From assembly GCA_016186145.1 (NCBI GenBank), contig JACPMF010000019.1, positions 1-37,185 of the forward strand: a stretch of 37,185 bases of DNA. Reading direction: 5' to 3'. A program made the position numbers and the translations under genes. Positions 1,777 through 37,185 of this stretch are shown here, piece after piece. The stretch is from Candidatus Sungiibacteriota bacterium (GTDB lineage Bacteria; Patescibacteriota; Minisyncoccia; Sungbacterales; SURF-37). Numbering within the stretch: the stretch's first letter is position 1; every line of letters begins with the position of its first letter. Under the pieces are notes generated by a model that worked only from the letters and a program-made list of their open reading frames with translations, was not told where the DNA came from and did not search any database.

Positions 1777-1933
1777 ACCCCGCACCAAATTTCGCGGGTA
1801 TAAAACGAGGCAAGGCGCTTCGCCCATAACGGGTTGGCTCTATTCGAGCCACGCGCCTTGCGAGAAGTATACAGTACGTTATTGAACCACAGTCGTTTTC
1901 GCTCCGTTTATGGCGAAATTGGTACGGGGTTCA
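1777..1933. mobile_element. Palindromic element, family A (CCCCG[C/T]ACCAAA ends)
   Basis: ACCCCGCACCAAATTTCGC ... GCGAAATTGGTACGGGGTTCA; internal GCGCTTCGCCCATAACGGG shared with the 32819-33049 copy. Confidence 0.75.
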
Positions 1934-24687: not shown

Positions 24688-24898
24688 GTTTTTACCCCCC
24701 TCCATTTCAAAGAACAAATAATTAAAATCCCCTGGCGGGTTTCGCCAGGGGAAGTGTGTTCCTAACTAAATAAAAGGTTTAAAACATTAAGAAAACAATT
24801 TCCATGGCGAAAACGCAAAATGACCACAATCAGGTGTGGTTAATTTCCACATATTCGCAATGGAATAAAATCTTTGCATATTTAAACTTGCTAAATAG

Positions 24899-25435
24899 TT
24901 ATCCTTCCCCGCCTTCATCTTGATATATCCTATCTATTTCATCGCCCCCGTTCCCGTCTTTATCTTCAATTTTTCTAATTTCCTCTTTTAATATCTGCTC
25001 CTGTCGAAAAAGATGATTTATAATGTCAACATGTTCGGGTTTGTCCACAAGCCGTTCTCGGCGTTCAACAATTTCAGCAAGCTGCCGCCTTAAATCTTCT
25101 ACATTATTCCCGCCACTTTCCTGTTCTTTCTTAGCGATCGGAGATTCACGAACCACTTCGATTTTTCTTTCAATCTTGATGCCCAAGGATTTTTCCAACT
25201 CCGCCATTGCTATCTTGAGAGTTCGTATCTTTTCGTCTTCGGATAAGCCAGAGGATGCAACTCTACCTTCAAAGAATTTCAGTTGAGCACGATAATATTC
25301 TAGAGATTTTCTCTCTGTTTCCCTAAAATCATTAATCGCCCCCCCAATCCACGCCTCCCAAGCCCGCCTATTTTCAATAGTGTCGTTATAGAATGATGGT
25401 TTTTCATTACGAGGTGGAATTTCCCTGTTCGGCAT
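24899..25435 (-). CDS. Hypothetical charged coiled-coil protein
   Basis: 178-aa ORF rich in E/K/R; no family recognised. Confidence 0.65.
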   Translation of the reverse strand: MPNREIPPRNEKPSFYNDTIENRRAWEAWIGGAINDFRETERKSLEYYRAQLKFFEGRVASSGLSEDEKIRTLKIAMAELEKSLGIKIERKIEVVRESPIAKKEQESGGNNVEDLRRQLAEIVERRERLVDKPEHVDIINHLFRQEQILKEEIRKIEDKDGNGGDEIDRIYQDEGGEG

Positions 25436-25730
25436 AACTTATGTCATTAACTTAATTTATAATCTTCGATTACCTTTCCAAAATTTTGGTATGCCGGCAT
25501 ACCTTACTTTCCTATTCCGCTAGGCGGAAAAGTATCATCGAGTCCATAAGTCCCGATTTTGTTCCCGCTGAAAGCGGGATTGTAAAATCGAGGATCCTCG
25601 ATAATCTATCCCAAAATTTTGGAGATTATCGGGACTTTTCCGCCAGAAGCGCCATGCCGGCCGGCCCGCTTCGCCGGAGCTTCAGCGAGGCGAGCAGGCG
25701 GGGATCCGCCTTCGGCGGACACTTCTCTGT

Positions 25731-25894
25731 CCCCGTACCAAATCTTTTGTATACTGGCGTACCCTACTTTCCCAGGAAGCCATGCTTCCAAGTATCATCG
25801 GGCTCAAATGCTTTCACTTCTCTGTTCGGAATGGGAAGAGGTGGGGCACATTTGAGTAAAACACCAGTAAACAGAAAATTTGGTACGGGGCAAG
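25731..25894. mobile_element. Family A element carrying an intact 5S gene
   Basis: CCCCGTACCAAAT...ATTTGGTACGGGGCAAG; removal restores CACTTCTCTGT|TCGGAATG with no target duplication. Confidence 0.7.
25752..25869 (-). rRNA. rrf: Inner intact 5S rRNA gene
   Basis: 118 nt; contains CCCAUUCCGAAC, GAUGAUAC and GGGAAAGUAGG; closing helix UACUGGU/GCCAGUA. Confidence 0.9.
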
Positions 25895-26193
25895 TCGGAA
25901 TGTTCCCGTTTTGTCTGCGAGCCGTAAGCGAACAGTTACAAAACGCGATCCCTTACTCAGCTTGCTGAGTATGGGAGGAAGAGGTGGGGCACCTATGGAT
26001 TAAACACCGGCAAATAAAATTTTTGATGGTTTTACCTAAAACCCATCTTAAAAATGCATTTGGAAAGTGTACTTTGAGCGGGGAGTAAAAATGATCTGTT
26101 AGTACCTCTCGGCTAAAACGCTTGCGCGCCTTACACCTAAGGCCTATCGACGTGATAATCTCTCACGGATCTATGATACCTAATCTTGGGGTG

Positions 26194-26226
<33 letters not shown>

Positions 26227-26368
26227 CTTCCGAACATAGCTACCCAGCGATGCTCCTGGCGGAACAGCTGGTAGACCAGAGGTTCGTTCATCCCGGTCCT
26301 CTCGTACTAAGGACAACTCCCCTCAAGTATCGACGCCTGCAGTAGATAGGAGACCAACCTGTCTCACG

Positions 26369-27083
26369 CTTGTTTGCTTTGCAAACCGCGGAACTACGCT
26401 GACTTCACGCAGACCTACGCAGAAAAATTCCGCGTTTGCCCGCATCCGATCTGCGACCGTCCGCGATGCTTAAGCATATCCTCTGTTACCAGAGGGATTG
26501 GACTATACCACTATCCTAGCCACTAGGGTTTAGCCACTAGCGATTAGGACAACCGACATGTTAGCAATTCATTATATGAATTACTCTGCCGCTTTCACGA
26601 CAAGTCTCTACGGGGTTAGCTTTCCAAAATACTTATTAAGTGCTTTATCATCCTTTTAGCTCTTTCTCGCTCATCTTCAGACAAATTCTTTACCACTCCT
26701 CCGAGTCGGCTTAAGAGATTTGCCACCTCTACAAACTCTTTGGATGCTTCCTTATCTTCTCCAGAGTTAAATGGTTCTTTCTCCATAAAATTATTCCTTA
26801 ATAATTATACCAACTAACTTCCCTCGGTATTATCCTACTAAACCCAGATTGGTTAATCAATTTCCGCGTCAATCCGCGTTGCCATCCGCGTATATCCGCG
26901 TGTTTTGACTTCAGTCAAAACAATAGGACTCCACCGATATGAGTCGGTTTATTCGATCCCGCTTACGCGGGAAAGCCGCCGTGCTTGCCCCGTACCGAGC
27001 TTTACTCTGGTGCGGGGTGTTTAACAAGTTCCTATCTAAAACTTGCTAAAAGATTTCGATGTCAATTTCAGGCTCTTTTTTTG
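26369..27083 (-). ncRNA. Group I intron at L2593
   Basis: Follows exon U and ends in G; core motifs UAUCGGUGGA, AAUACCGAGGGAAG, CCCCGUAGAGACU, GGUAUAGUCC; IGS GCGGCUU and P10 CACG. Confidence 0.9.
26616..26786 (-). CDS. 56-aa intron-encoded hypothetical protein (not a homing endonuclease)
   Basis: MEKEPFNSGEDKEASKEFVEVANLLSRLGGVVKNLSEDERERAKRMIKHLISILES; upstream TATAAT and AAGGA; below the ORF-track cutoff. Confidence 0.6.
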   Translation of the reverse strand: MEKEPFNSGEDKEASKEFVEVANLLSRLGGVVKNLSEDERERAKRMIKHLISILES

Positions 27084-27092
27084 ACGGTTTGA

Positions 27093-27931
27093 CACTTATA
27101 TTACGATTACTCGTAAAGTAGACTATACCTTTATTCAATCTCCGCAGACTGAATACCGACGTCTTATACAACAAGACTTGCTTCTTGTATCTGACCCAAC
27201 ACTGATTGGATCAAGTCGTTACGGGGATTACAAATCTTATGGGTCATTGATGGAATTATAAATGGTTCAATAATATTGTTGAACTTTTGATACTCATGCC
27301 TTCCGATTCTTATCTTGAACCTTGCTCTGTCTTTGATTATCGTTGCGGAAATCTTGAATCTCCGCGCTAGAAATTCAACAATTCGTTCTTGGTCTTGAAG
27401 CAAGAAATTATGAGTACTTATGGTGTACGAAGCTTTCGTATTTGAACCATCGTCCATAAACCATATTGCGATTGCTCTCGGAATCAAATAATCAAACAAA
27501 TCTTGAGGAAATATTTTAACCGCATCCTTATAGAAATAATGATACAGTGCTCCAAGTTCTTTGAGTGTTTTGGTGTGGAAGTACCACGAATAATGATCTT
27601 TGTTTCGCTTGGCATCATGCCAAACTTTGATTCTTCGCGGCTCCTTTAACACCAGATTCTCAAGTTGAGCATATTTCCAGAAGACGTATTCTTTCTGTTT
27701 CTCACTTTGATGAATTCGCAATCGTGCGCTTATGGGATATCGTTTTCCAACTGAACGGCACTCAAGACGAGCATCGCCCAACAATGATCCTATAATCACA
27801 TCAACTTGATGTGACGGAAATAACGATTGTAATCTTCCCACGGTATGGTCCATACAATTTTATTGTATCATAAATTTGCATGGATTCCACCGTTATGAGT
27901 CGGTTTAATCTGGGCTCAGTAGTTTTCACTA
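27093..27931 (-). ncRNA. Group I intron at L2584
   Basis: P1: exon CUGGGU pairs with GCCCAG (U-G at the splice site); terminal G; core CCCCGUAACGACU and GGUAUAGUC. Confidence 0.88.
27164..27853 (-). CDS. LAGLIDADG homing endonuclease (double motif, LAGLIDADG_2-like)
   Basis: IIGSLLGDA and IAIWFMDDGS motifs; inside the L2584 intron. Confidence 0.92.
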   Translation of the reverse strand: MDHTVGRLQSLFPSHQVDVIIGSLLGDARLECRSVGKRYPISARLRIHQSEKQKEYVFWKYAQLENLVLKEPRRIKVWHDAKRNKDHYSWYFHTKTLKELGALYHYFYKDAVKIFPQDLFDYLIPRAIAIWFMDDGSNTKASYTISTHNFLLQDQERIVEFLARRFKISATIIKDRARFKIRIGRHEYQKFNNIIEPFIIPSMTHKICNPRNDLIQSVLGQIQEASLVV

Positions 27932-28015
27932 ACCCAGCTCGCGTATCTTTTTAAATGGCGAACAGCCATACGCTTGGGAGCTTCTTCACCCCCGCGCTAA
28001 GATGAGCCGACATCG

Positions 28016-28845
28016 CTGTCGTTATTTGTCTTCCGTTACCGGAAGGATCGGACTATATCTTCATCCCACCTTTAATGGGAGTTGGCGTTTTAGCTCTCCA
28101 TGTTCTGGAGAACTCCGGTCAACTTCTGACCAAGTCTCTACGGGGTCATAACTCAATTTATACTTCATCGAAGGAATAATATGTTCAGAAATTAATTGAT
28201 TAAATTTCTTAATACTTTCCTTCAAAAATCTTAGTCGATAATAGGATTTATCTTTATTTATGGTCGTTTCCAAACCCAAAACTTTTAACATTCCCATCAA
28301 TTTTTCTTGATCGGAATGGCTGAACTGTTGGGTATTAAGATAAACATCTCTATCGCGGCATCTGCTTCCGTCATCCATAAACCACACAGCAAGTGAAATT
28401 GGACCGAGTTGAATATCTGGTATTCGTTTCTTTCCGCCCTCATAGAATAATTCATGCATTCGCGATAATTCTGGATGCTGCTGTGTATAGAAACGATATG
28501 CTATCCGATGCCCATTTCCATACCGTGATTTTGGAATTCCGCCCGCAATATTTTTGAGTACAGAATATTTCCAATCAACGTACTCTTTTGCTCTTATGGA
28601 ATGGTTTATCTCGAGAAAAGCATCTTTACGCCCTTTTAGTTTGCGCAAATAGCCGTCTCCTAAGAGTGTTCCTATTATCAGAGATTTTTGTAATTGAGTT
28701 AGACTTCCCACGGTATTGTCCATATTAGGTATTTTACCATATGGAGTCCACCGTTATAAGCCAATATTTTATTCGAATTTCCGCTCCTAACGGATTGATT
28801 CGAACGGCTAATGCCGTTGCTGGCATGGCGCCCCGATGTTGTTTG
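28016..28845 (-). ncRNA. Group I intron at L2500
   Basis: Splits GGCACCU|CGAUGUCGG; terminal G; P10 CAUCG; core CCCCGUAGAGACU and AAGAUAUAGUCC. Confidence 0.92.
28061..28723 (-). CDS. LAGLIDADG homing endonuclease (double motif, LAGLIDADG_2-like)
   Basis: IIGTLLGDG and LAVWFMDDGS motifs; inside the L2500 intron. Confidence 0.93.
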   Translation of the reverse strand: MDNTVGSLTQLQKSLIIGTLLGDGYLRKLKGRKDAFLEINHSIRAKEYVDWKYSVLKNIAGGIPKSRYGNGHRIAYRFYTQQHPELSRMHELFYEGGKKRIPDIQLGPISLAVWFMDDGSRCRDRDVYLNTQQFSHSDQEKLMGMLKVLGLETTINKDKSYYRLRFLKESIKKFNQLISEHIIPSMKYKLSYDPVETWSEVDRSSPEHGELKRQLPLKVG

Positions 28846-29506: not shown

Positions 29507-29830
29507 CAACTTTGTTACAAGAATCTAAAAACTAAAAAGTAGAATCTAGAATCTGGACGAGACATTTCTGCTCGCCTCTGCATATTACTATGCAGTTCGG
29601 ACTATATCTTCCGAGTACACTTAAACTCGGTTCGGCGTGTAGTCTCTACGGGGTCCCTCGATAAACTCGGGACTTCCCTCGGTATTGTCCAAAATCCTGT
29701 CTGAAATTTTGGATGTTCACCGATATAGCTCCGCCGTCGCCTTACGGCTATGGACGGATCCTTGATTTTGTAACTCCTCGATAAACTCGGAGACAAAATC
29801 GGGACAAATTTTACTAAGGCAAATCAATTC
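29507..29830 (-). ncRNA. ORF-less group I intron at L1931
   Basis: Splits CUAAGGU|AGCG; P1 with GCCUUAG; terminal G; core CCCCGUAGAGACU and AAGAUAUAGUCC. Confidence 0.92.
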
Positions 29831-30038
29831 ACCTTAGAACGATTATAGTTATCGCTGACATTGACGAGGGCTTAACATCTCACGCAATAAAAAATTGATG
29901 TAATCTCATTCCCATCACAAAAATGTTTGACCTTCTCGCATCGGTCAGGCGTCACCTCCTATACATCCTCTTACGAGTTAGCAGGAGGCTGTGTTTTTGG
30001 TAAACAGTCGCCAGGGGTTCTTTTGTTGCAGGCGCGCG

Positions 30039-32545: not shown

Positions 32546-32818
32546 ATCGCTGATTTCTCAGCGATGGGTTTCCCCATTCGGAAATCGCCGGATCAAAGGT
32601 TGCTTGACACCTCCCCGACGCTTATCGCAGTCACGCCACGCCCTTCATCGCCTACGGAACCCTAGGCATCCACCATACGCCCTTATTATTACTCCCCGCC
32701 CAAAACACACTTTGTTTTGAACGGTTTTATTTTTAGGTTACCTGTATTAAATTTTCAAACTGCTTACCTTACCAACCATCGTCTACTCCCAAAAACAGAC
32801 GACGACCGATAAGAATTT

Positions 32819-33049
32819 ACCCCAGCACCAATTTTGCGATAAACTCCAACGCAAAGCGCTTCGCCCATAACGGGATGTGCCTATTTCTGCGGGGTTTCCT
32901 GCTGCGGGTGCGGCTCCGCCGCATCCTCGCAAAACCCGTGAAAAGCTATTTAAACGCTTTTCACCACACGCGCTTCGCTATAAACTTAAATAGCATTTTA
33001 TCTTAACAACGCGTTATTTCTTGCAGCGGCAAAATTGGTGCGGGGTTCA
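32819..33049. mobile_element. Family A element in the rRNA leader
   Basis: ACCCCAGCACCAATTTTGC...GCAAAATTGGTGCGGGGTTCA; shares GCGCTTCGCCCATAACGGG with 1777-1933. Confidence 0.75.
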
Positions 33050-33242
33050 ATTCTTATAGCCGCTCGAGCTGCGCCTTACGGCTTGCTCTCGCGGATAAGA
33101 ATTGAAAAACCGCGTATCCACGCGGCTCAAATGCATGAGACAGTTTAAAAACTGCTGGCAATTACGGTCCCGGGCTAGTGTCTTTTTGAGCCGCTTTTTT
33201 TGAATTTTTTGAAACAATAATCATATTTTCTTACGTTATCCA

Positions 33243-33270
33243 ATTATACGCGGCAACAAAACCCTGTCAA
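33243..33270 (-). promoter_or_regulatory. Consensus sigma70 promoter of the 23S-5S unit
   Basis: TTGACA (33270-33265), 16-nt spacer, TATAAT (33248-33243). Confidence 0.85.
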
Positions 33271-33285
33271 GAGAAACAAGGGCGG

Positions 33286-33294
33286 TGTGGATAA
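33286..33294 (-). promoter_or_regulatory. Perfect DnaA box
   Basis: TTATCCACA on minus, 15 nt upstream of the -35; also at 34224-34232 and 34557-34565 on plus. Confidence 0.55.
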
Positions 33295-33360
33295 CCATTG
33301 CACCGATAACCAAAATCCCGCCAGCGGCGGGATTTTGAAATCTTCTCAACACATTCATTT

Positions 33361-34044
33361 CTAGGATCCGCGGACCTCGCGGATAACTCGATCAACAACT
33401 GCTCCTGCCGCATCTTTTCCGCCAAGACCGAATGCCAAGCCGAACGCCAAAGCAAGCATAGCAACAAGGCCGGTGACAACCGTCTGAAGAAGAACGGTCG
33501 CAACACCCAACTGCAAAAGCGCTGCCACAATTGCGAATACCCAGACTGACCATCGCGCTACCAAACCGACCAATGAGCCGCGGCGAAGACCGGCCGCCTC
33601 AACAGAACCGCGAACTACCCGTTCTGCCACTTCCGCCACCAATGCTGCGATGACCAAGATCAAAACGGCAACCACGACATTCGGAAGATAGAGCAACACG
33701 GAAGTCAAGAAATCGGTAACCTGCGTCAATTGAAGAATGTTTGCGGCAGCAAGAAGCGCTACTATGATCAAAAACCATCTCACCAAACCGCCGACAAAAG
33801 CGCCGGTGTTCAACCGCATGCCGGCTCGCTCCATTGCTTTCTCGAAGTCAAGCTTTGCAAGAAACATGTCCACACGAAGGGCCTTAATCACCTGCTCGAC
33901 GAGCTTGCCTAGGGCAACCGCAATAATCCACCCGATAACAAAAACAATAAGGGCAGAAAGAAGAAATGGCACGAAACTCACCACTGCAGACCATGCTTGT
34001 TGCAAGGACGCAACTACGACATCACCCCATGTTTGAAATATCAT
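33361..34044 (-). CDS. MscS-associated conserved TM-helix protein (CmpX-like)
   Basis: FVPFLLSALIVFVIGWIIA, YLPNVVVAVLIL, ALAFGLAFGLGGKD; likely start MIFQTW. Confidence 0.85.
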   Translation of the reverse strand: MIFQTWGDVVVASLQQAWSAVVSFVPFLLSALIVFVIGWIIAVALGKLVEQVIKALRVDMFLAKLDFEKAMERAGMRLNTGAFVGGLVRWFLIIVALLAAANILQLTQVTDFLTSVLLYLPNVVVAVLILVIAALVAEVAERVVRGSVEAAGLRRGSLVGLVARWSVWVFAIVAALLQLGVATVLLQTVVTGLVAMLALAFGLAFGLGGKDAAGAVVDRVIREVRGS

Positions 34045-34233
34045 AGCGTAAATAAAAAGAAACGAAGCGCGCTGAACCATGCATCAGTTAAACGCGCTTG
34101 TTTTTTACTATTAAAACTGTTAAAACTCCCTTCCCGAACGCCCAAGCGGCTTCGGACCGACCCGGAAGTCTGTAAATTAGTACCGTTTTATTATACTTCC
34201 TCTATCGCCAGCTCCAAAACCGTTTATCCACAA

Positions 34234-34482
34234 CTATCGCTTTTCGTTCTTATGAGTCCTTTGTGGGCTCTTCACATCTTCAACCTCTTTTTCCATTCGT
34301 TTTTCGACTTCCTCAATTTCTTTCATGAGTTCGCGACTCAACAATTCTTCGCATTTTTTCGAGTCTTTGGCAGATTTAAACTCCGGAAGTTCGCCAATGA
34401 ACTGACTTAAGGCAGCCTTAAGATTATCGAAACCACTGTGAACGAACTTTTCCGCCTCGGAAACCTCAACCCTGAATACCAA
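34234..34482 (-). CDS. Small hypothetical protein
   Basis: 82-aa charged ORF; start uncertain. Confidence 0.4.
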   Translation of the reverse strand: MVFRVEVSEAEKFVHSGFDNLKAALSQFIGELPEFKSAKDSKKCEELLSRELMKEIEEVEKRMEKEVEDVKSPQRTHKNEKR

Positions 34483-34675
34483 AGATAATGTGGGGATTCG
34501 AATACAATAACCCTGCTCTTCTTTATTTTAGCACTTTTTGCTATATTTATCCCAACTTATCCACATGATCCTGCTTTATACAGGACATATGAAGGGCCAC
34601 CAATAAAAACGCGAAATGCCACTAATTTTAATGACACTTCGTGTAAATATTGGCGGTTAGTAATGTCTGCGCAGC

Positions 34676-35242
34676 ATGCTTTCAATAAATGACCTAAAAA
34701 GCGGACTTGTTATAACGATCGATAATGAGCCCTATCAAATTCTCGAAGTAAAGCACCTCCATATGGGAAGAGGGGGGTCTTCAATCCAAACCCGCATCCG
34801 AAACCTAAAAACCGGACAGGTTTTGCAAAGAAACTTTAAGCCGGCTGACGCTTTTGAAGAGGCAGATATTGAAAAAAGAAAAGTTACATTCGTCTATGCG
34901 CACCGCGGTGAATATGTTTTTTCGGAGGCCGGCAAACGCTTTTCTCTCAAGGAAAACGAAGTTGGCGATATCCGAAAATGGCTCAAGCCGAATACCGAAA
35001 TCGAAGCGGTATTTTTAGACGATGCGCTTCTTTCCATCAATGTTCCTATCAAAATCGACTTTCGGATTACCGAATCGCCGCCGGGACTTAAAGGAGATAC
35101 GGCCCAAGGAGGCACGAAGATTGCGACCATAGAAACCGGAGCAAAAATTTCCGTGCCGCTGTTTATCAATGAGGGAGACGTAATCAGGGTGAATACCCAA
35201 ACAGGAGAGTATGCGGAAAGGGTTGAGAAAATGAAAGACTAA
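34676..35242 (+). CDS. efp: Elongation factor P
   Basis: HMGRGGS loop (Arg at the modified position), PPGLKGDTAQGGTK, VPLFINEGD. Confidence 0.97.
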   Translation: MLSINDLKSGLVITIDNEPYQILEVKHLHMGRGGSSIQTRIRNLKTGQVLQRNFKPADAFEEADIEKRKVTFVYAHRGEYVFSEAGKRFSLKENEVGDIRKWLKPNTEIEAVFLDDALLSINVPIKIDFRITESPPGLKGDTAQGGTKIATIETGAKISVPLFINEGDVIRVNTQTGEYAERVEKMKD

Positions 35243-35271
35243 CAGTTTTAAAAAGACCTGCTCACGGAAAC

Positions 35272-35303
35272 ACAAACGCCGCCAGCTAGCTGACGGCGTT
35301 TGC
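35272..35303. terminator. Hairpin between convergent efp and ATPase genes
   Basis: CAAACGCCG.CAGC-TA-GCTG.CGGCGTTTG. Confidence 0.6.
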
Positions 35304-35314
35304 TCGTTCTATAC

Positions 35315-37185
35315 TTACTCAAAAGTGATTCTCTCCCCCGGTTGAATTATCTTTCCATTTTTATCTTCTTCCTGATGTTTCGCCTTTTCTTCCTCCCTCA
35401 CGACAGACTGTGAAAGTATTTCTCTTAAACCCTGAAGATCAACTTCCTTTTTTTGCGGCTGCGGCCTTGTGAACTCCCTTCTCCCGGGCCTTGATGAGTG
35501 ATCCGAAGAAATTTCAGACTCATCATGGCCGTTAAAATCCCCCGATTCGTCTTTTGCTGTTTCTTTCGGTTTTAACACATCGAGTGACAAAGGCCTGCTG
35601 ACAGCAGGAGGAAAACGGACTGCCGGCCTTGAAGGAACCGACTTCTGCAAAGCTGGTCTGGGTGAAGAAAAACGGCTAACCGAAGGAGCGCTCGGCGGAA
35701 CAGGATTCCGTGGAGATTCTGGTGGAGCAGGAATGGCTTCGCCGCGCCGTAACATCTCAAGATGTTTTTCGCAGTACACCGGCCGCCTTTTATCGGGCAT
35801 AAAAGGAACCATAACCAATTCGCCATCTATAGCGCAACGAGCTTCATAAAGCTTCCGGTCGGCTTTCCTTGCCGCTCCCCCATCCGCCGGCCCGAACATA
35901 GGAGCTGGCGAAATATCATTTCCGGTTCGGACCGAGGCTGCCGCGCCGAAAGAAAGACCGTGAAATTTCTCTATTTTCTGCCTTACTTCTTCTGCGGACG
36001 TCCCGTACTGCTTGCGCGATAATTTAATTATCGCCTCACGATTGCTTTTCGCGGGTTTTGGCAGGGGCGCTAAGGTTGTCGCCGAGAACGGCCGCGAAGC
36101 AATCCCGTCAATCATGAGCTTCAAATAAATTTGAGCAAAACCCAGGTTTACCAAGTCCTCCGCCATAAACTCCGGGTTAAACTCTTTTTCCAAAAGCTCC
36201 GCATCCGGCGCACCAACCCGAAACGTAACAGTAGTCCCTACGTTGCCGAATACCGCATCAGCTACTTTTTCATCCATCTGTGCCACATACTGGTGCGCAA
36301 GAATAAGACTCAAACGGTATTTCCGGGCTTCGGCAAGAATATTTGCGAAAGATTCTGTCGCGAAGTTTTGAAACTCGTCAACATAAAGGTAGAAATCACG
36401 CCGTTCTTCCTCCGGAACATCAACACGAGTCATTGCGGTCAAATATAATTTTGTCACCAGCATTGCGCCAAGAAGCCGGGAATTCTCTTCCCCGACTTTT
36501 CCTTTGGAAATATTCATAATGAAAATTTTTCCGCCATCCATTACCTCCCGCATGTCAACCGAAGACCGTTCTTGGCCGACAATATTGCGAATCAACGGAT
36601 TCGAAGTGAACTGGCCGATCTTATTTTGAATAGCTGCTGATGCCTCCGTCGCAAAACGCTCCTGATATTGGGCATATTCTTTTTCCCAAAAAGCGCGCAC
36701 CACCGGATCGGTAAGTTGAAAAACAATGCTTTTCCTGAATTCCTTATCCGCGAACATCCGGTTAATTCCAAGCAGTGTGGAACCCGGGACCTCAAGAAGC
36801 GCCAAAATTGAATTTGAAAGCAAGTACTCCATTCTCGCCGACCAGACATCCGGCCAAATCTTTTTAAAAACACCCAGGAGCCCCGATGCGATAAGGTGCC
36901 GTTGCTCCGGCAAAACGCTTTCCATACTGTTGAAAGCAACGGGGTATTCCAGATCCGACGGATTGAAATAAATAACATCTTCAATTCGTTCCGAAGGCAC
37001 AAAATCGAGCATCCGCTCCGCAAACTCTCCGTGGGGATCAATTATGCCAAGGCCTTTCCCGTTTTGAATGTCCTGAATAGCCATATTCTCAAGAAGCGTG
37101 GTTTTCCCCATGCCGGTTTTCCCGATGATGTACATGTGTTTTCGGCGGTCAGCGGGCTTTATGCCAAAACGCCGCCTCGCATCGC
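35315..37185 (-). CDS. VirD4/TraG/DUF87-like P-loop ATPase with C-terminal CxxC-x17-CxxC-like domain, 5' end outside the window
   Basis: RRKHMYIIGKTGMGKT, IDPHGE, YVDEFQNF, EARKYRL, AHQY; CAID...VPF.P...RPVYCEKH. Confidence 0.88.
   Translation of the reverse strand, partial: DARRRFGIKPADRRKHMYIIGKTGMGKTTLLENMAIQDIQNGKGLGIIDPHGEFAERMLDFVPSERIEDVIYFNPSDLEYPVAFNSMESVLPEQRHLIASGLLGVFKKIWPDVWSARMEYLLSNSILALLEVPGSTLLGINRMFADKEFRKSIVFQLTDPVVRAFWEKEYAQYQERFATEASAAIQNKIGQFTSNPLIRNIVGQERSSVDMREVMDGGKIFIMNISKGKVGEENSRLLGAMLVTKLYLTAMTRVDVPEEERRDFYLYVDEFQNFATESFANILAEARKYRLSLILAHQYVAQMDEKVADAVFGNVGTTVTFRVGAPDAELLEKEFNPEFMAEDLVNLGFAQIYLKLMIDGIASRPFSATTLAPLPKPAKSNREAIIKLSRKQYGTSAEEVRQKIEKFHGLSFGAAASVRTGNDISPAPMFGPADGGAARKADRKLYEARCAIDGELVMVPFMPDKRRPVYCEKHLEMLRRGEAIPAPPESPRNPVPPSAPSVSRFSSPRPALQKSVPSRPAVRFPPAVSRPLSLDVLKPKETAKDESGDFNGHDESEISSDHSSRPGRREFTRPQPQKKEVDLQGLREILSQSVVREEEKAKHQEEDKNGKIIQPGERITFE

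What the first reader, a model, noticed from the sequence alone, without database searches (positions are those of the whole stretch)
25492..26012. A 5S rRNA gene nested inside another 5S rRNA gene
Seen: removing four self-pairing inserts (25551-25634, 25639-25719, 25731-25894, 25903-25976) yields a 118-nt 5S collinear with a second, divergent, intact 118-nt 5S (25752-25869) that lies inside insert 3 between family A ends. The two copies differ by compensatory changes in helices I and II and have similar flanking stems. All inserts fall within 23 nt of the helix III/loop C arm and leave no target duplication. Established: single 5S insertions exist (Halococcus). I know of no nested 5S. Inference: an element delivered a replacement 5S into the resident gene, which then accumulated insertions or persists as a giant RNA.
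Basis: partly seen in the sequence, partly recalled or inferred. Interest (0 to 1): 0.92.

Follow-up and report, generated by a model that had tools for sequence, protein, structure and literature searches.

The report
5S rRNA gene nested inside another
A complete 5S ribosomal RNA gene sits on a small hairpin insert inside the loop of a second, split 5S gene, and the same Russian-doll layout recurs in related tiny-genome groundwater bacteria, which suggests that a ribosomal RNA gene can be replaced by an incoming copy of itself.

Summary
All features lie on the minus strand.

**What is there**
- Removing four inserts leaves a 118-nt 5S that lines up without gaps against the inner 5S (91 of 118 identical).
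- The joined outer copy keeps 30 of 34 Rfam pairs, against 32 for the inner. Six pairs differ by compensatory changes.
- Only the inner copy is found by Rfam (69 bits).

**Not an assembly artefact**
- Contigs from two groundwater metagenome runs match every junction exactly, except across the interior of the ins2 repeat.
- Extra 5S halves flank the intact 5S in 12 of 39 related genomes examined, in up to three layers. They also occur in unrelated metagenome contigs.

**The inserts**
- They are non-coding hairpin repeats that also occur elsewhere in the genome.
- The one carrying the inner 5S has the "family A" arms. The same arms flank a tRNA-Arg gene and multi-copy cargo.

**Reading**
- Best reading: a hairpin cassette delivers a replacement 5S, and the old gene becomes a shell that later erodes.
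- Still open: the insertion mechanism, and whether the complete outer copy here yields a working RNA. No RNA data covered this organism.

My four literature searches found no nested 5S. A survey of 645 CPR (candidate phyla radiation) 5S genes reported no insertions.

The parts
26092..26333 (-). 3' end of the 23S rRNA, the last exon-like piece of a heavily interrupted 23S gene
   Evidence: RF02541, 228.9 bits, model positions 2655-2912
25977..26012 (-). Outer 5S piece 1 (nt 1-36): helix I 5' strand, helix II 5' strand and helix III 5' strand
   Evidence: Joining and ungapped alignment; nhmmer 5'-half hit
25949..25976 (-). Insert 4a, a 28-nt hairpin with TCCC...GGGA ends
   Evidence: Folds as a closed hairpin. 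The same kind of hairpin sits at the same site in L022 (G008) and L124.
25903..25948 (-). Insert 4b, a 46-nt hairpin
   Evidence: Homologous hairpin at the same site in 5 loci; 4 of 14 predicted pairs are kept through changes on both sides. The first 50 nt of insert 4 are 88% identical to C23:15583-15631.
25895..25902 (-). Outer 5S piece 2 (nt 37-44), the loop C core
25870..25894 (-). Insert 3 left side: a 4-nt linker plus the family-A arm and the A/T stem leading into the inner 5S
   Evidence: Inverted repeat I1, 30 nt, 87% complementary; regex hit
25751..25869 (-). Inner 5S rRNA gene, intact
   Evidence: RF00001, 69.1 bits, model positions 1-120, the only 5S match in the genome; 32 of 34 consensus pairs
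25731..25750 (-). Insert 3 right side: A/T stem and family-A arm
25720..25730 (-). Outer 5S piece 3 (nt 45-55): helix III 3' strand
   Evidence: 11-nt exact repeat of the inner copy (D5)
25639..25719 (-). Insert 2, an 81-nt hairpin repeat with TCCGCC...GGCGGA ends
   Evidence: Full-length copies at C3:85486-85566 (98.8%), C1:17285-17365 (96%), C5:28279-28359 (93%) and C5:9214-9292 (91%). Most copies examined lie between long ORFs.
25635..25638 (-). Outer 5S piece 4 (nt 56-59), loop B
25551..25634 (-). Insert 1, an 84-nt double hairpin
   Evidence: About 20 copies at 69-83% identity on 11 contigs, several beside tRNA genes. A related hairpin sits at the same site in the relic layers of G009 and G028.
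25492..25550 (-). Outer 5S piece 5 (nt 60-118): helix II 3' strand, helices IV/V and helix I 3' strand
   Evidence: model R1 hit at 25492-25562, 44 bits, E 1.7e-8
26988..27017 (.). Empty family-A hairpin inside the large 23S insertion
1778..1929 (.). Family-A cassette with a 116-nt cargo that has no Rfam match; member of a dispersed repeat family

Best explanation
The 23S-5S operon of this small-genome (0.98 Mb) groundwater bacterium ends in a Russian-doll 5S locus.

A resident 5S gene, the outer copy, has been split after nt 36, 44, 55 and 59. Those positions lie in loop C, helix III, loop B and the start of the helix II 3' strand. Five non-coding hairpin modules fill the gaps, and none left a target duplication. 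Three kinds of module also occur elsewhere in the genome as dispersed hairpin repeats.

One module is a 'family A' hairpin. Its loop holds a complete, divergent 5S gene closed by a stem of about 20 bp.

I read the inner gene as the working 5S and the closing stem as its processing stem. I read the outer gene as a superseded shell that happens still to be complete here.

The process is recurrent. Cassette after cassette lands in the loop-C region of whichever 5S is resident, giving layers, and older shells lose halves and conserved residues.

Shown: the anatomy; the recurrence; the repeat nature of the inserts and of the family-A arms; an empty-site orthologue in another genus; erosion of outer shells elsewhere.

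Inferred: that the inner copy alone is functional here; that the stem is a processing signal; that delivery was horizontal.

Unknown: the enzyme or recombination route that inserts the cassette.
For: **Only the inner copy is always intact.**
- It is the sole RF00001 match in a genome that is 99% complete.
- In every analogous locus the innermost copy is the full-length one.

**Recurrence.**
- 12 of the 39 genomes of the order with a 5S match carry extra 5S halves beside the intact gene at E<1e-3: 37 genomes checked and 2.
- G002, G008 and G009 show three layers.
- The layout also occurs in metagenome contigs L124 (a 117-kb contig), L077/L126, L133 and L162. That is 5 of 119 pattern hits; the rest were chance matches.
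- In a class-wide sample, G101 and G110 have it, out of 146 genomes outside the order.

**Erosion of outer shells.**
- Shells lack a 3' or a 5' half in G002, G003, G023, G028 and G110.
- All 4 outers of the 'TTCACCCC' junction type that still have a 3' half (G045, G035, G019, G101) have changed the loop-C CGAA to CGGG, TGAG or CGTG. All 31 rows of the alignment keep CGAAC.

**Empty site.** G049's single 5S shares both flanks with the outer 5S of G045, a member of the same genus.

**Repeat nature of the inserts.**
- ins2 has a 98.8% identical copy on another contig.
- Family-A arms enclose a tRNA-Arg gene, two other cargos and two empty hairpins.
- One of those cargos is multi-copy in 21 of 61 relatives.

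**Divergence.** Inner and outer here differ in every variable helix. The helix IV/V segment differs by an edit distance of 11 over 18 nt, as expected for an incomer.
Against: - The outer copy here is complete: 30 of 34 pairs, 91 HMM bits, and every loop-C, loop-B and loop-E piece at or close to consensus. That is not what long neutral decay predicts.
- All four insert sites fall in the zone that PMC7812874 describes as the least obstructed in working 5S rRNAs. This suggests the gene was under selection when the inserts arrived.
- In G058, G045, G035 and G009 the inner and outer helix IV/V segments differ by 0-1 nt, while only 1.6% of 630 between-genome pairs are that close. In those loci the inner copy is therefore not simply foreign; conversion or in-place duplication is needed.
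- No transposase-like gene (Y1_Tnp, TnpB-type) and no reverse transcriptase was found in the genome, so no mobilising enzyme is identified.
- Short rRNA contigs in binned genomes may be mis-assigned, so the counts by family are soft.
- No RNA evidence exists for either copy.
Confidence: 0.55

Rival explanations
1. Both genes are used. One transcript yields the inner 5S, released at its closing stem, and also a working outer 5S. The outer would be either a very large expanded 5S whose hairpins and second 5S protrude from the top of the central protuberance, or a molecule from which the inserts are cut out and, if needed, rejoined.
For: [quoted passage not shown] Loop C and the helix III bulge are described there as the least obstructed sites (PMC7812874, passages).
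- The outer copy is complete, with 30 of 34 pairs and 6 compensated pairs.
- By my own hand arithmetic, four independent hits within 23 nt of a 118-nt gene have p of about 0.03 for any window, and about 0.002 for this pre-named zone.
- Inner and outer usually differ in helices I and II, the 'T-type' versus 'G-type' combination in 9 of 13 layer pairs read by eye. They often share helix IV/V. That is what correct folding of two 5S molecules from one transcript, plus concerted evolution, would produce.
- The 561-nt RNA folds far better than shuffles (z -9.35) and keeps outer helix I and the inner 5S.
Against: - Exon pieces of 4, 8 and 11 nt cannot stay together after simple cutting.
- No RtcB ligase was found in the genome.
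- Expansion segments on record reach 109 nt. Here 403 nt would sit in the uL5/uL18 contact region.
- Outer shells are truncated in at least 5 other genomes, and 4 of 4 'TTCACCCC'-type outers have lost an invariant loop-C motif, so the shell is dispensable there.
- In the 561-nt minimum-free-energy fold, outer helices II and IV/V are replaced by other pairings.
- The outer has G-to-A changes at two otherwise (nearly) invariant columns of the 3' half, one of which makes a C-A mismatch.
Confidence: 0.22
2. There is no mobile element. The CCCCGYACC...GGTRCGGGG stems are the native processing and terminator stems of stable-RNA genes in this lineage. Nesting arises inside the operon, when the organism's own pre-5S unit is copied into its own gene by recombination or template switching at the hairpin-rich core. 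Divergence of helices I/II follows, or homologous exchange with DNA taken up from relatives.
For: - Every single 5S gene in the order is also enclosed by a 15-20-bp flanking stem. It often has similar ...ACCAAA.../...TTTGGT... arms and a T-run after the 3' arm.
- Inner and outer share a genome-specific helix IV/V in G058, G045, G035 and G009.
- No transposase or reverse transcriptase was found.
- The only long stretch conserved between divergent 5S genes is the core where all the junctions lie.
Against: - Family-A arms also enclose non-RNA-gene cargo that is multi-copy and dispersed: 21 of 61 genomes, up to 14 copies. They also occur as empty hairpins, one of them inside a 23S insertion.
- Only 1 of 46 tRNA genes has these arms.
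- The same junction types and the same accessory hairpins recur beside very different host 5S sequences, including the short-type 5S of L077.
- In this window the inner and outer differ in every variable helix.
- Simple homologous crossover gives tandem copies, not nested ones.
Confidence: 0.18
3. The locus is an assembly or binning chimera: two strains' 5S genes were stitched together by the assembler.
For: The genome is a 24-contig metagenome bin. ins2 is a multi-copy repeat, and no listed contig piece bridges its interior at 25679-25721.
Against: - Independent Logan contigs of X1 and X3 reproduce every other junction with zero differences, at the depth of the flanking single-copy DNA, about 9x and 13-27x.
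- The shared exact stretches between inner and outer pieces are at most 16 nt, too short to mislead a k-mer assembler.
- The same nesting occurs in at least 12 other genome assemblies and several unrelated metagenome contigs.
Confidence: 0.02

Closest known systems
[quoted passage not shown]
   Same: [quoted passage not shown] They co-occur with 5S remnants that carry the same inserts. The authors propose spread by recombination and horizontal transfer.
   Different: Those segments are 13-109 nt, number one or two per gene, and were found in Clostridia, Halanaerobiales, Alteromonadales and Halobacteria. None carries a 5S gene: the word 'nested' occurs 0 times in the text. Here there are 403 nt in five modules, one of which is a full second 5S, in recursive layers, in a CPR-type lineage.
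Insertion sequences in CPR 16S/23S rRNA genes (Tsurumaki et al. 2024, PMC11270868, passages; Brown et al. 2015, recalled)
   Same: The same kind of organism, and the same operon: the 23S here has a group I intron and two LAGLIDADG genes. Inserts in rRNA genes are frequent.
   Different: That survey states that no insertion of 100 bp or more was found in any of 645 5S genes. It took cmsearch hits as the genes, which would return only inner copies. The 5S inserts here encode no protein and match no intron family.
Halococcus morrhuae 5S rRNA with a 108-nt insertion (mentioned in the PMC7812874 introduction; details recalled)
   Same: A large insert carried within a 5S gene.
   Different: A single insert, retained in the only 5S of the cell, at another site, with no gene inside it.
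MITE/REP-like hairpin repeats of bacteria (general knowledge, recalled)
   Same: Small, non-coding, palindromic, multi-copy, mostly intergenic, nested in one another, and lacking their own transposase.
   Different: No target-site duplication. No matching transposase in the genome. One family carries stable-RNA genes as cargo.
Integrative elements that target tRNA genes and bring a replacement for the disrupted end (general knowledge, recalled)
   Same: The logic is the same: an insert into an essential RNA gene is harmless because it supplies a working copy.
   Different: Those elements are kilobases long, encode an integrase, replace only the 3' part and leave direct repeats. Here 164 nt with no protein carry the whole gene.
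Archaeal processing stems and bulge-helix-bulge introns of rRNA (general knowledge, recalled)
   Same: An RNA enclosed by a long stem within a longer transcript. In archaea the flanks are rejoined after excision.
   Different: This is a bacterium. No RtcB was found. I did not test for the bulge-helix-bulge motif.

Membership tests
5S rRNA (RF00001), inner copy | Full-length match above the Rfam gathering score, with three-helix junction and loop C/E motifs | tested here: met
   69.1 bits against a cut-off of 38, model positions 1-120; 32 of 34 consensus pairs
5S rRNA (RF00001), joined outer copy | Full-length match to the 5S model once the inserts are removed | tested here: met
   Tested by proxy. 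118 nt, 30 of 34 threaded Rfam pairs against a shuffle maximum of 23. 91 bits over positions 1-118 of a profile HMM built from 29 relatives. The minimum-free-energy fold is the 5S shape. Infernal itself could not be run on a joined sequence with these tools.
5S rRNA (functional gene), outer copy | A mature RNA of that sequence exists in ribosomes | not testable with these tools
   RNA runs X5 and X7 cover only stretches shared with other organisms. They give no depth on any unique part of the locus.
5S expansion segment (Stepanov & Fox) | The insert lies at a sterically permissive site and folds on its own without pairing to the core | tested here: inconclusive
   [quoted passage not shown] But an 11-nt perfect complement links the junction of ins2, outer piece 4 and ins1 to outer helix IV (I6), and the 561-nt fold disrupts outer helices II and IV/V.
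5S expansion segment (Stepanov & Fox) | The expanded gene is the only 5S, or an expressed one | tested here: not met
   An intact 5S lies inside it. Expression could not be tested.
MITE | Terminal inverted repeats, small size, no coding capacity, many dispersed copies | tested here: met
   ins1, ins2 and family A
MITE | Target-site duplication flanking each copy | tested here: not met
   None at the four sites in the 5S, nor at the 5 full-length ins2 copies. One possible 4-nt duplication (TAAA) flanks a different insert in G019.
IS200/IS605-derived palindromic elements / REP | A Y1 (HUH) transposase or RAYT gene in the genome | tested here: not met
   PF01797: 0 matches. The TnpB-type domain PF07282: 0 matches. 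Genome 99% complete.
Group I / group II intron | Match to the intron covariance models | tested here: not met
   No such match in 25300-26200, even at E up to 10. The window's only group I hit is in the 23S at 29578-29840.
Retro-inserted RNA copy | A reverse transcriptase is available | tested here: not met
   PF00078: 0 matches
Bulge-helix-bulge type intron with exon ligation | A splice motif at both junctions and an RtcB-type ligase | tested here: not met
   RtcB (PF01139): 0 matches. The motif itself was not examined.

The most novel reading that the evidence does not exclude
The family-A hairpin is a new kind of protein-less mobile cassette that carries stable-RNA genes: 5S, a tRNA-Arg, and RNAs of unknown kind. 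It lands in the loop-C region of whichever 5S gene is resident.

In this lineage a ribosomal RNA gene would then be replaced again and again by an incoming copy of itself, partly across lineages. Most 'single' 5S genes there would be the last survivors of such invasions.

A bolder extension, which I put at about 1 in 10: where the shell is still complete, as in this window, one 521-nt transcript gives two different 5S rRNAs. That would require either an unknown bacterial cut-and-rejoin pathway or ribosomes that carry a 5S inside a 5S.
Probability: 0.35. Interest if true: 0.92.

Novelty: categorically new. Interest (0 to 1): 0.86.

Why it matters
rRNA genes are treated as the most vertically inherited and least mobile genes, and 5S genes in CPR bacteria were reported to be free of insertions.

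A 5S gene that travels on a 164-nt hairpin and replaces the resident copy from within would be a new way for a core ribosomal component to turn over and move between lineages.

It would also explain three things:
- why helices I and II of the 5S differ so sharply between close relatives;
- why standard model searches see only one tidy 5S at these loci;
- why about a third of the examined 5S loci in this order are layered.

It gives a concrete test bed for how protein-less hairpin repeats insert without target duplication, and for how much foreign RNA the top of the central protuberance can carry.

Tried and rejected
1. **Interrupted tRNA genes as proof of RNA-level excision.** My ARAGORN run listed only 32 tRNAs, with no Asn, Asp, Cys or Trp. 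RF00005 then found 46 intact tRNA genes. The idea is dropped; the ARAGORN run was simply incomplete.

2. **Empty-site allele of this window's own outer 5S.** An exact 26-nt pattern from outer piece 1 found 0 metagenome contigs.

3. **RNA evidence.** RNA runs X5 and X7 gave depth only on the ins2-like repeat, the conserved 5S core and the 23S. This organism is not shown to be in them, so nothing can be said about expression, ends or splicing.

4. **Enzymes.** RtcB, Y1_Tnp, RVT_1 and the TnpB-type domain each gave 0 matches.

5. **Terminator and promoter scan of 24800-26200.** Nothing on the rRNA strand after either 5S.

6. **Rfam on family-A cargos.** Only the tRNA matched. The cargo at 1778-1929 and the one on C24 have no match.

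7. **Genome-wide junction pattern in genome contigs.** 9 hits, about the number expected by chance. One is a 3,396-nt record titled 'uncultured Candidatus Saccharibacteria bacterium', the same length as G009:C88. I take it to be that contig by inference only.

9. **No tree of the 5S copies.** At 118 nt, the identities of inner and outer to relatives (65-81%) do not resolve a donor.

10. **Family-level distribution is soft.** G009:C88 and G028:C90 are contigs of 3.4-3.7 kb that share nearly the same relic layers and the same downstream ORF, although they are binned in different families. G028 also has a second 5S locus. Mis-binning of short rRNA contigs is likely.

12. **Supplementary files were not opened.** The supplements of PMC7812874 and PMC11270868 may list 5S remnants relevant to this finding.
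Full report
**What is in the window**

Rfam places a bacterial 23S rRNA on the minus strand. It comes in two blocks, 32695-28741 and 26333-26092. Between them lie a group I intron hit at 29840-29578 and two LAGLIDADG endonuclease genes.

About 80 nt after the 23S end lies the region in question. Rfam finds one 5S gene, 25869-25751, at 69.1 bits against a cut-off of 38. It is the only 5S match in the whole 980,396-bp, 24-contig genome, which is 99% complete.

The genome's size and its intron-rich 23S are those of a candidate-phyla-radiation (CPR, Patescibacteria) bacterium. The sequencing runs that hold the window's sequence come from groundwater. One family member's contig appears to be a public record titled 'uncultured Candidatus Saccharibacteria bacterium'.

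**Checking the observation**

Read on the minus strand, five pieces join to 118 nt: 26012-25977, 25902-25895, 25730-25720, 25638-25635 and 25550-25492.

- The joined sequence aligns to the inner gene without a single gap, with 91 of 118 identities. This includes a 41-nt identical core that is cut into five pieces in the outer copy.
- Both sequences fold by minimum free energy into the three-arm 5S shape.
- I threaded the Rfam consensus of 34 pairs onto both. The inner has 32 standard pairs and the outer 30. In 1000 shuffles of the outer the mean was 12.8 and never exceeded 23.
- Six pairs in helices I and II differ on both sides and remain paired.
- A profile built from 29 relatives' intact 5S genes scores the inner at 112 bits and the joined outer at 91 bits over its full length. 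The unjoined region gives only two end fragments.
- The four inserts each fold as a closed hairpin. Insert 4 is two hairpins side by side.
- I see no target duplication at any junction.
- The flanks of the two copies are also alike.

The description is therefore accurate, and the resemblance is far beyond chance.

**Is it an assembly artefact?**

Contigs built independently by Logan from runs X1 and X3 lie on the window with no differences, at the depth of the neighbouring single-copy DNA. They bridge these junctions:
- the outer 3' piece into ins1 and ins2 (25300-25678);
- the helix III piece into insert 3 and the inner 5S (25722-25836);
- the inner 5S through the left arm, the 8-nt piece and insert 4 (25828-25923 and 25894-26092);
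- in X1, everything from the inner 5S to the 23S (25823-26221).

Only the interior of ins2 (25679-25721), a multi-copy repeat, is not bridged by a listed piece. The two runs belong to one study, which may be the source of the window, so this shows reproducibility rather than independence. The stronger argument is recurrence, described next.

**The same thing in other genomes**

RF00001 matches 39 of the 61 genomes searched in the order, counting the window's own. The order holds 62 genomes.

I built half-gene profiles, 5' up to ...CCGA and 3' from ACAG..., and ran them over the 5S loci of all 39 genomes: 37 and 2. Twelve genomes have extra 5S halves beside the intact gene at E<1e-3: G000, G058, G002, G028, G035, G003, G009, G008, G045, G023, G019 and G036.

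Reading those loci gave the following.
- G058, G045, G035, G019, G036 and layer 2 of G008 have an outer gene with both halves around an intact inner gene.
- G002, G008 and G009 have three layers.
- G002, G003 and G023 keep only 5' relics. G028 keeps only 3' relics.
- By eye, G017, G031 and G032 still show a few loop-C letters next to the stem of an otherwise single 5S.

Outside the order:
Five of them hold 5S halves. L124, on a 117-kb contig, has exactly the layout of this window: 4a, 4b, the 8-nt loop piece, a family-A cassette with an intact 5S, and a complete outer gene. L077 and L126 show the layout in a short-type 5S.
- A 3'-half covariance model was run on 151 genomes drawn across the class. 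It finds both halves in the window (89 and 44 bits) and two closely spaced 3' halves in G101 and G110. On reading, these are a nested locus and a relic.

Nesting is therefore common in this order, in about a third of the loci examined. It is sporadic elsewhere in the class: 2 of 146, using a model tuned to the order.

**What the inserts are**

- **ins2** (81 nt) has full-length copies at 98.8, 96, 93 and 91% identity on contigs C3, C1 and C5, with the same ends.
- **ins1** has about twenty copies at 69-83% identity on 11 contigs.
- Most copies examined lie between long ORFs, and several lie beside tRNA genes.
- **Insert 3** has arms CCCCGTACC... and ...GGTACGGGG. The same arms enclose six things in this genome:
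  - the 5S;
  - a tRNA-Arg(GCG) gene (C8:9891-10002);
  - a 116-nt cargo with no Rfam match (window 1778-1929);
  - another cargo on C24;
  - two empty hairpins, at C24:31334-31365 and at window 26988-27017 inside the 23S insertion.
- A further copy with a variant arm lies in the 23S leader.
- The cargo at 1778-1929 is itself a dispersed repeat. It matches in 21 of 61 genomes, with 14 matches in G005, 9 in G044 and 5 in G000.
- Hairpin 4b recurs at the same site in five loci, with 4 of 14 predicted pairs kept through changes on both sides.
- None of the inserts matches an intron or any other Rfam family, even at E up to 10.
- The genome has no match to Y1 transposase, the TnpB-type domain, reverse transcriptase or RtcB.

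The inserts are thus protein-less hairpin repeats of several families. They nest in one another and have no recognisable mobilising enzyme in this genome.

**Which copy works, and what happened**

Several observations point to replacement.

- The innermost copy is always the intact one.
- Outer shells lose halves in at least five genomes.
- One junction type starts the insert with TTCACCCC after CCCATTC. In that type, all four outers that keep a 3' half have changed the loop-C CGAA to CGGG, TGAG or CGTG. All 31 rows of the alignment keep CGAAC.
- Within one genus there is a series. G049 has a single 5S whose two flanks match those of the outer gene of G045, which makes it an empty site. G045 is nested. 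G048 and G041 have only a cassette-type gene in family-A-like arms followed by a T-run.
- In this window the inner and outer genes differ in every variable helix. The outer's helix I/II type (...TTAATCCAT...) is the one seen in family members G008 and G003. This fits a resident outer gene and an incoming inner gene.

**What speaks against a simple dead shell**

- The outer gene here is complete and nearly perfectly paired.
- All four sites lie where Stepanov and Fox found expansion segments of working 5S rRNAs to concentrate, with loop C and the helix III bulge the least obstructed. By my own arithmetic, four independent hits within 23 of 117 junctions have a probability of about 0.03 for any window, and about 0.002 for that pre-named zone. 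Either the elements prefer this zone, or the gene was under selection when they landed.
- In G058, G045, G035 and G009 the inner and outer helix IV/V segments differ by 0-1 nt, while only 1.6% of 630 between-genome pairs are that close. Helices I and II differ strongly in the same loci. So the two copies exchange sequence or arose from one another there.
- Their helices I/II tend to be of two contrasting types. That would limit both deletion by recombination and misfolding.
- The 561-nt transcript folds with z = -9.35. It keeps outer helix I and the inner 5S with its stem, but not outer helices II and IV/V.

No RNA data bear on this organism, so the working state of the outer copy remains open. 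I give the replaced-shell reading 0.55, a two-product or giant-RNA reading 0.22, and a purely in-operon origin without a mobile element 0.18.

**Comparison with what is known**

The closest described thing is the set of 5S expansion segments and associated 5S remnants in Clostridia, Pseudoalteromonas and haloarchaea (PMC7812874; abstract and passages read). They share the zone of the molecule, the self-pairing inserts and the suspected spread by recombination. None holds a gene, and the largest is 109 nt.

The survey of CPR rRNA insertions states that none was found in any of 645 5S genes (PMC11270868, passage read). That survey took covariance-model hits as the genes, which returns only inner copies.

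I ran four full-text searches:
- 5S rRNA, insertion, candidate phyla radiation;
- 5S rRNA gene, nested, insertion, bacteria;
- 5S rRNA, intervening sequence, interrupted, Patescibacteria;
- 5S rRNA gene, inserted into, 5S rRNA pseudogene, prokaryot.

None listed a paper describing a 5S gene inside a 5S gene in bacteria or archaea, judging by titles and abstract starts.

The logic resembles that of integrative elements which repair the tRNA gene they disrupt. Here the carrier is a 164-nt hairpin with no protein.

**Verdict**

The finding is real, reproducible and recurrent, and within the searches named above it is undescribed. The mechanism of insertion and the fate of the outer transcript are the open questions.

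Noticed in passing
window 26334-28740 and 29578-29840: The 23S gene is interrupted by about 2.4 kb that holds two LAGLIDADG_2 endonuclease ORFs (27164-27853 and 28061-28723, minus strand), and by a group I intron hit (52.8 bits). The Rfam alignment also shows hairpin insertions of 110, 117 and about 150 nt in the 5' domain.
   Followed up: partly
window 1778-1929: A family-A stem (18 bp) encloses a 116-nt cargo with no Rfam match, between an ORF end and an SSB-like gene. Its first ~85 nt are a dispersed repeat, matching in 21 of 61 related genomes with up to 14 matches in one genome. It could be an unknown small RNA or a pure hairpin repeat.
   Followed up: partly
G000:C8:9891-10002 (L224): A tRNA-Arg(GCG) gene is enclosed by the same family-A arms and ends with ...GGGGCAGG, like the 5S-locus hairpins in relatives. 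Just upstream sit the same mini-hairpins (CCGCC...GGCGG) that occupy the loop-B site of outer 5S genes in G009, G019 and G036. I saw no relic tRNA halves.
   Followed up: partly
window 32822-33047: Another family-A-type element, with right arm GGTGCTGGGG, about 225 nt long and full of nested hairpins, lies in the leader just upstream of the 23S 5' end.
   Followed up: no
window 25633-25706: Contigs of two metatranscriptome runs (X5, X7) cover an ins2-like sequence carrying a 2-nt (TT) insertion variant. Repeats of this family therefore occur in RNA libraries of some organism in groundwater. DNA carry-over is not excluded.
   Followed up: no
window 25523-25533 and 25634-25644: There is an 11-nt perfect complement between the outer helix IV 5' strand and the junction of ins2, outer piece 4 and ins1. 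It competes with the outer 5S fold in the 561-nt minimum-free-energy structure.
   Followed up: partly
window 32696-37185: There is no 16S rRNA next to the 23S in the window; protein genes follow instead. The rRNA operon is therefore split, or the 16S lies elsewhere.
   Followed up: no
L016 (G009:C88) and L011 (G028:C90): Two contigs of 3.4-3.7 kb, binned in different families, share nearly identical relic 5S layers, the same ins1-like hairpin and the same downstream ORF. G028 also has a second 5S locus on C51. This is probably mis-binning of short rRNA contigs. G128, G156 and G176 likewise show 5S halves on several contigs.
   Followed up: no
L032 (G019), outer helix IV loop: An insert of about 70 nt is flanked on both sides by TAAA. 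It is the only possible target-site duplication seen in any of these 5S loci.
   Followed up: no
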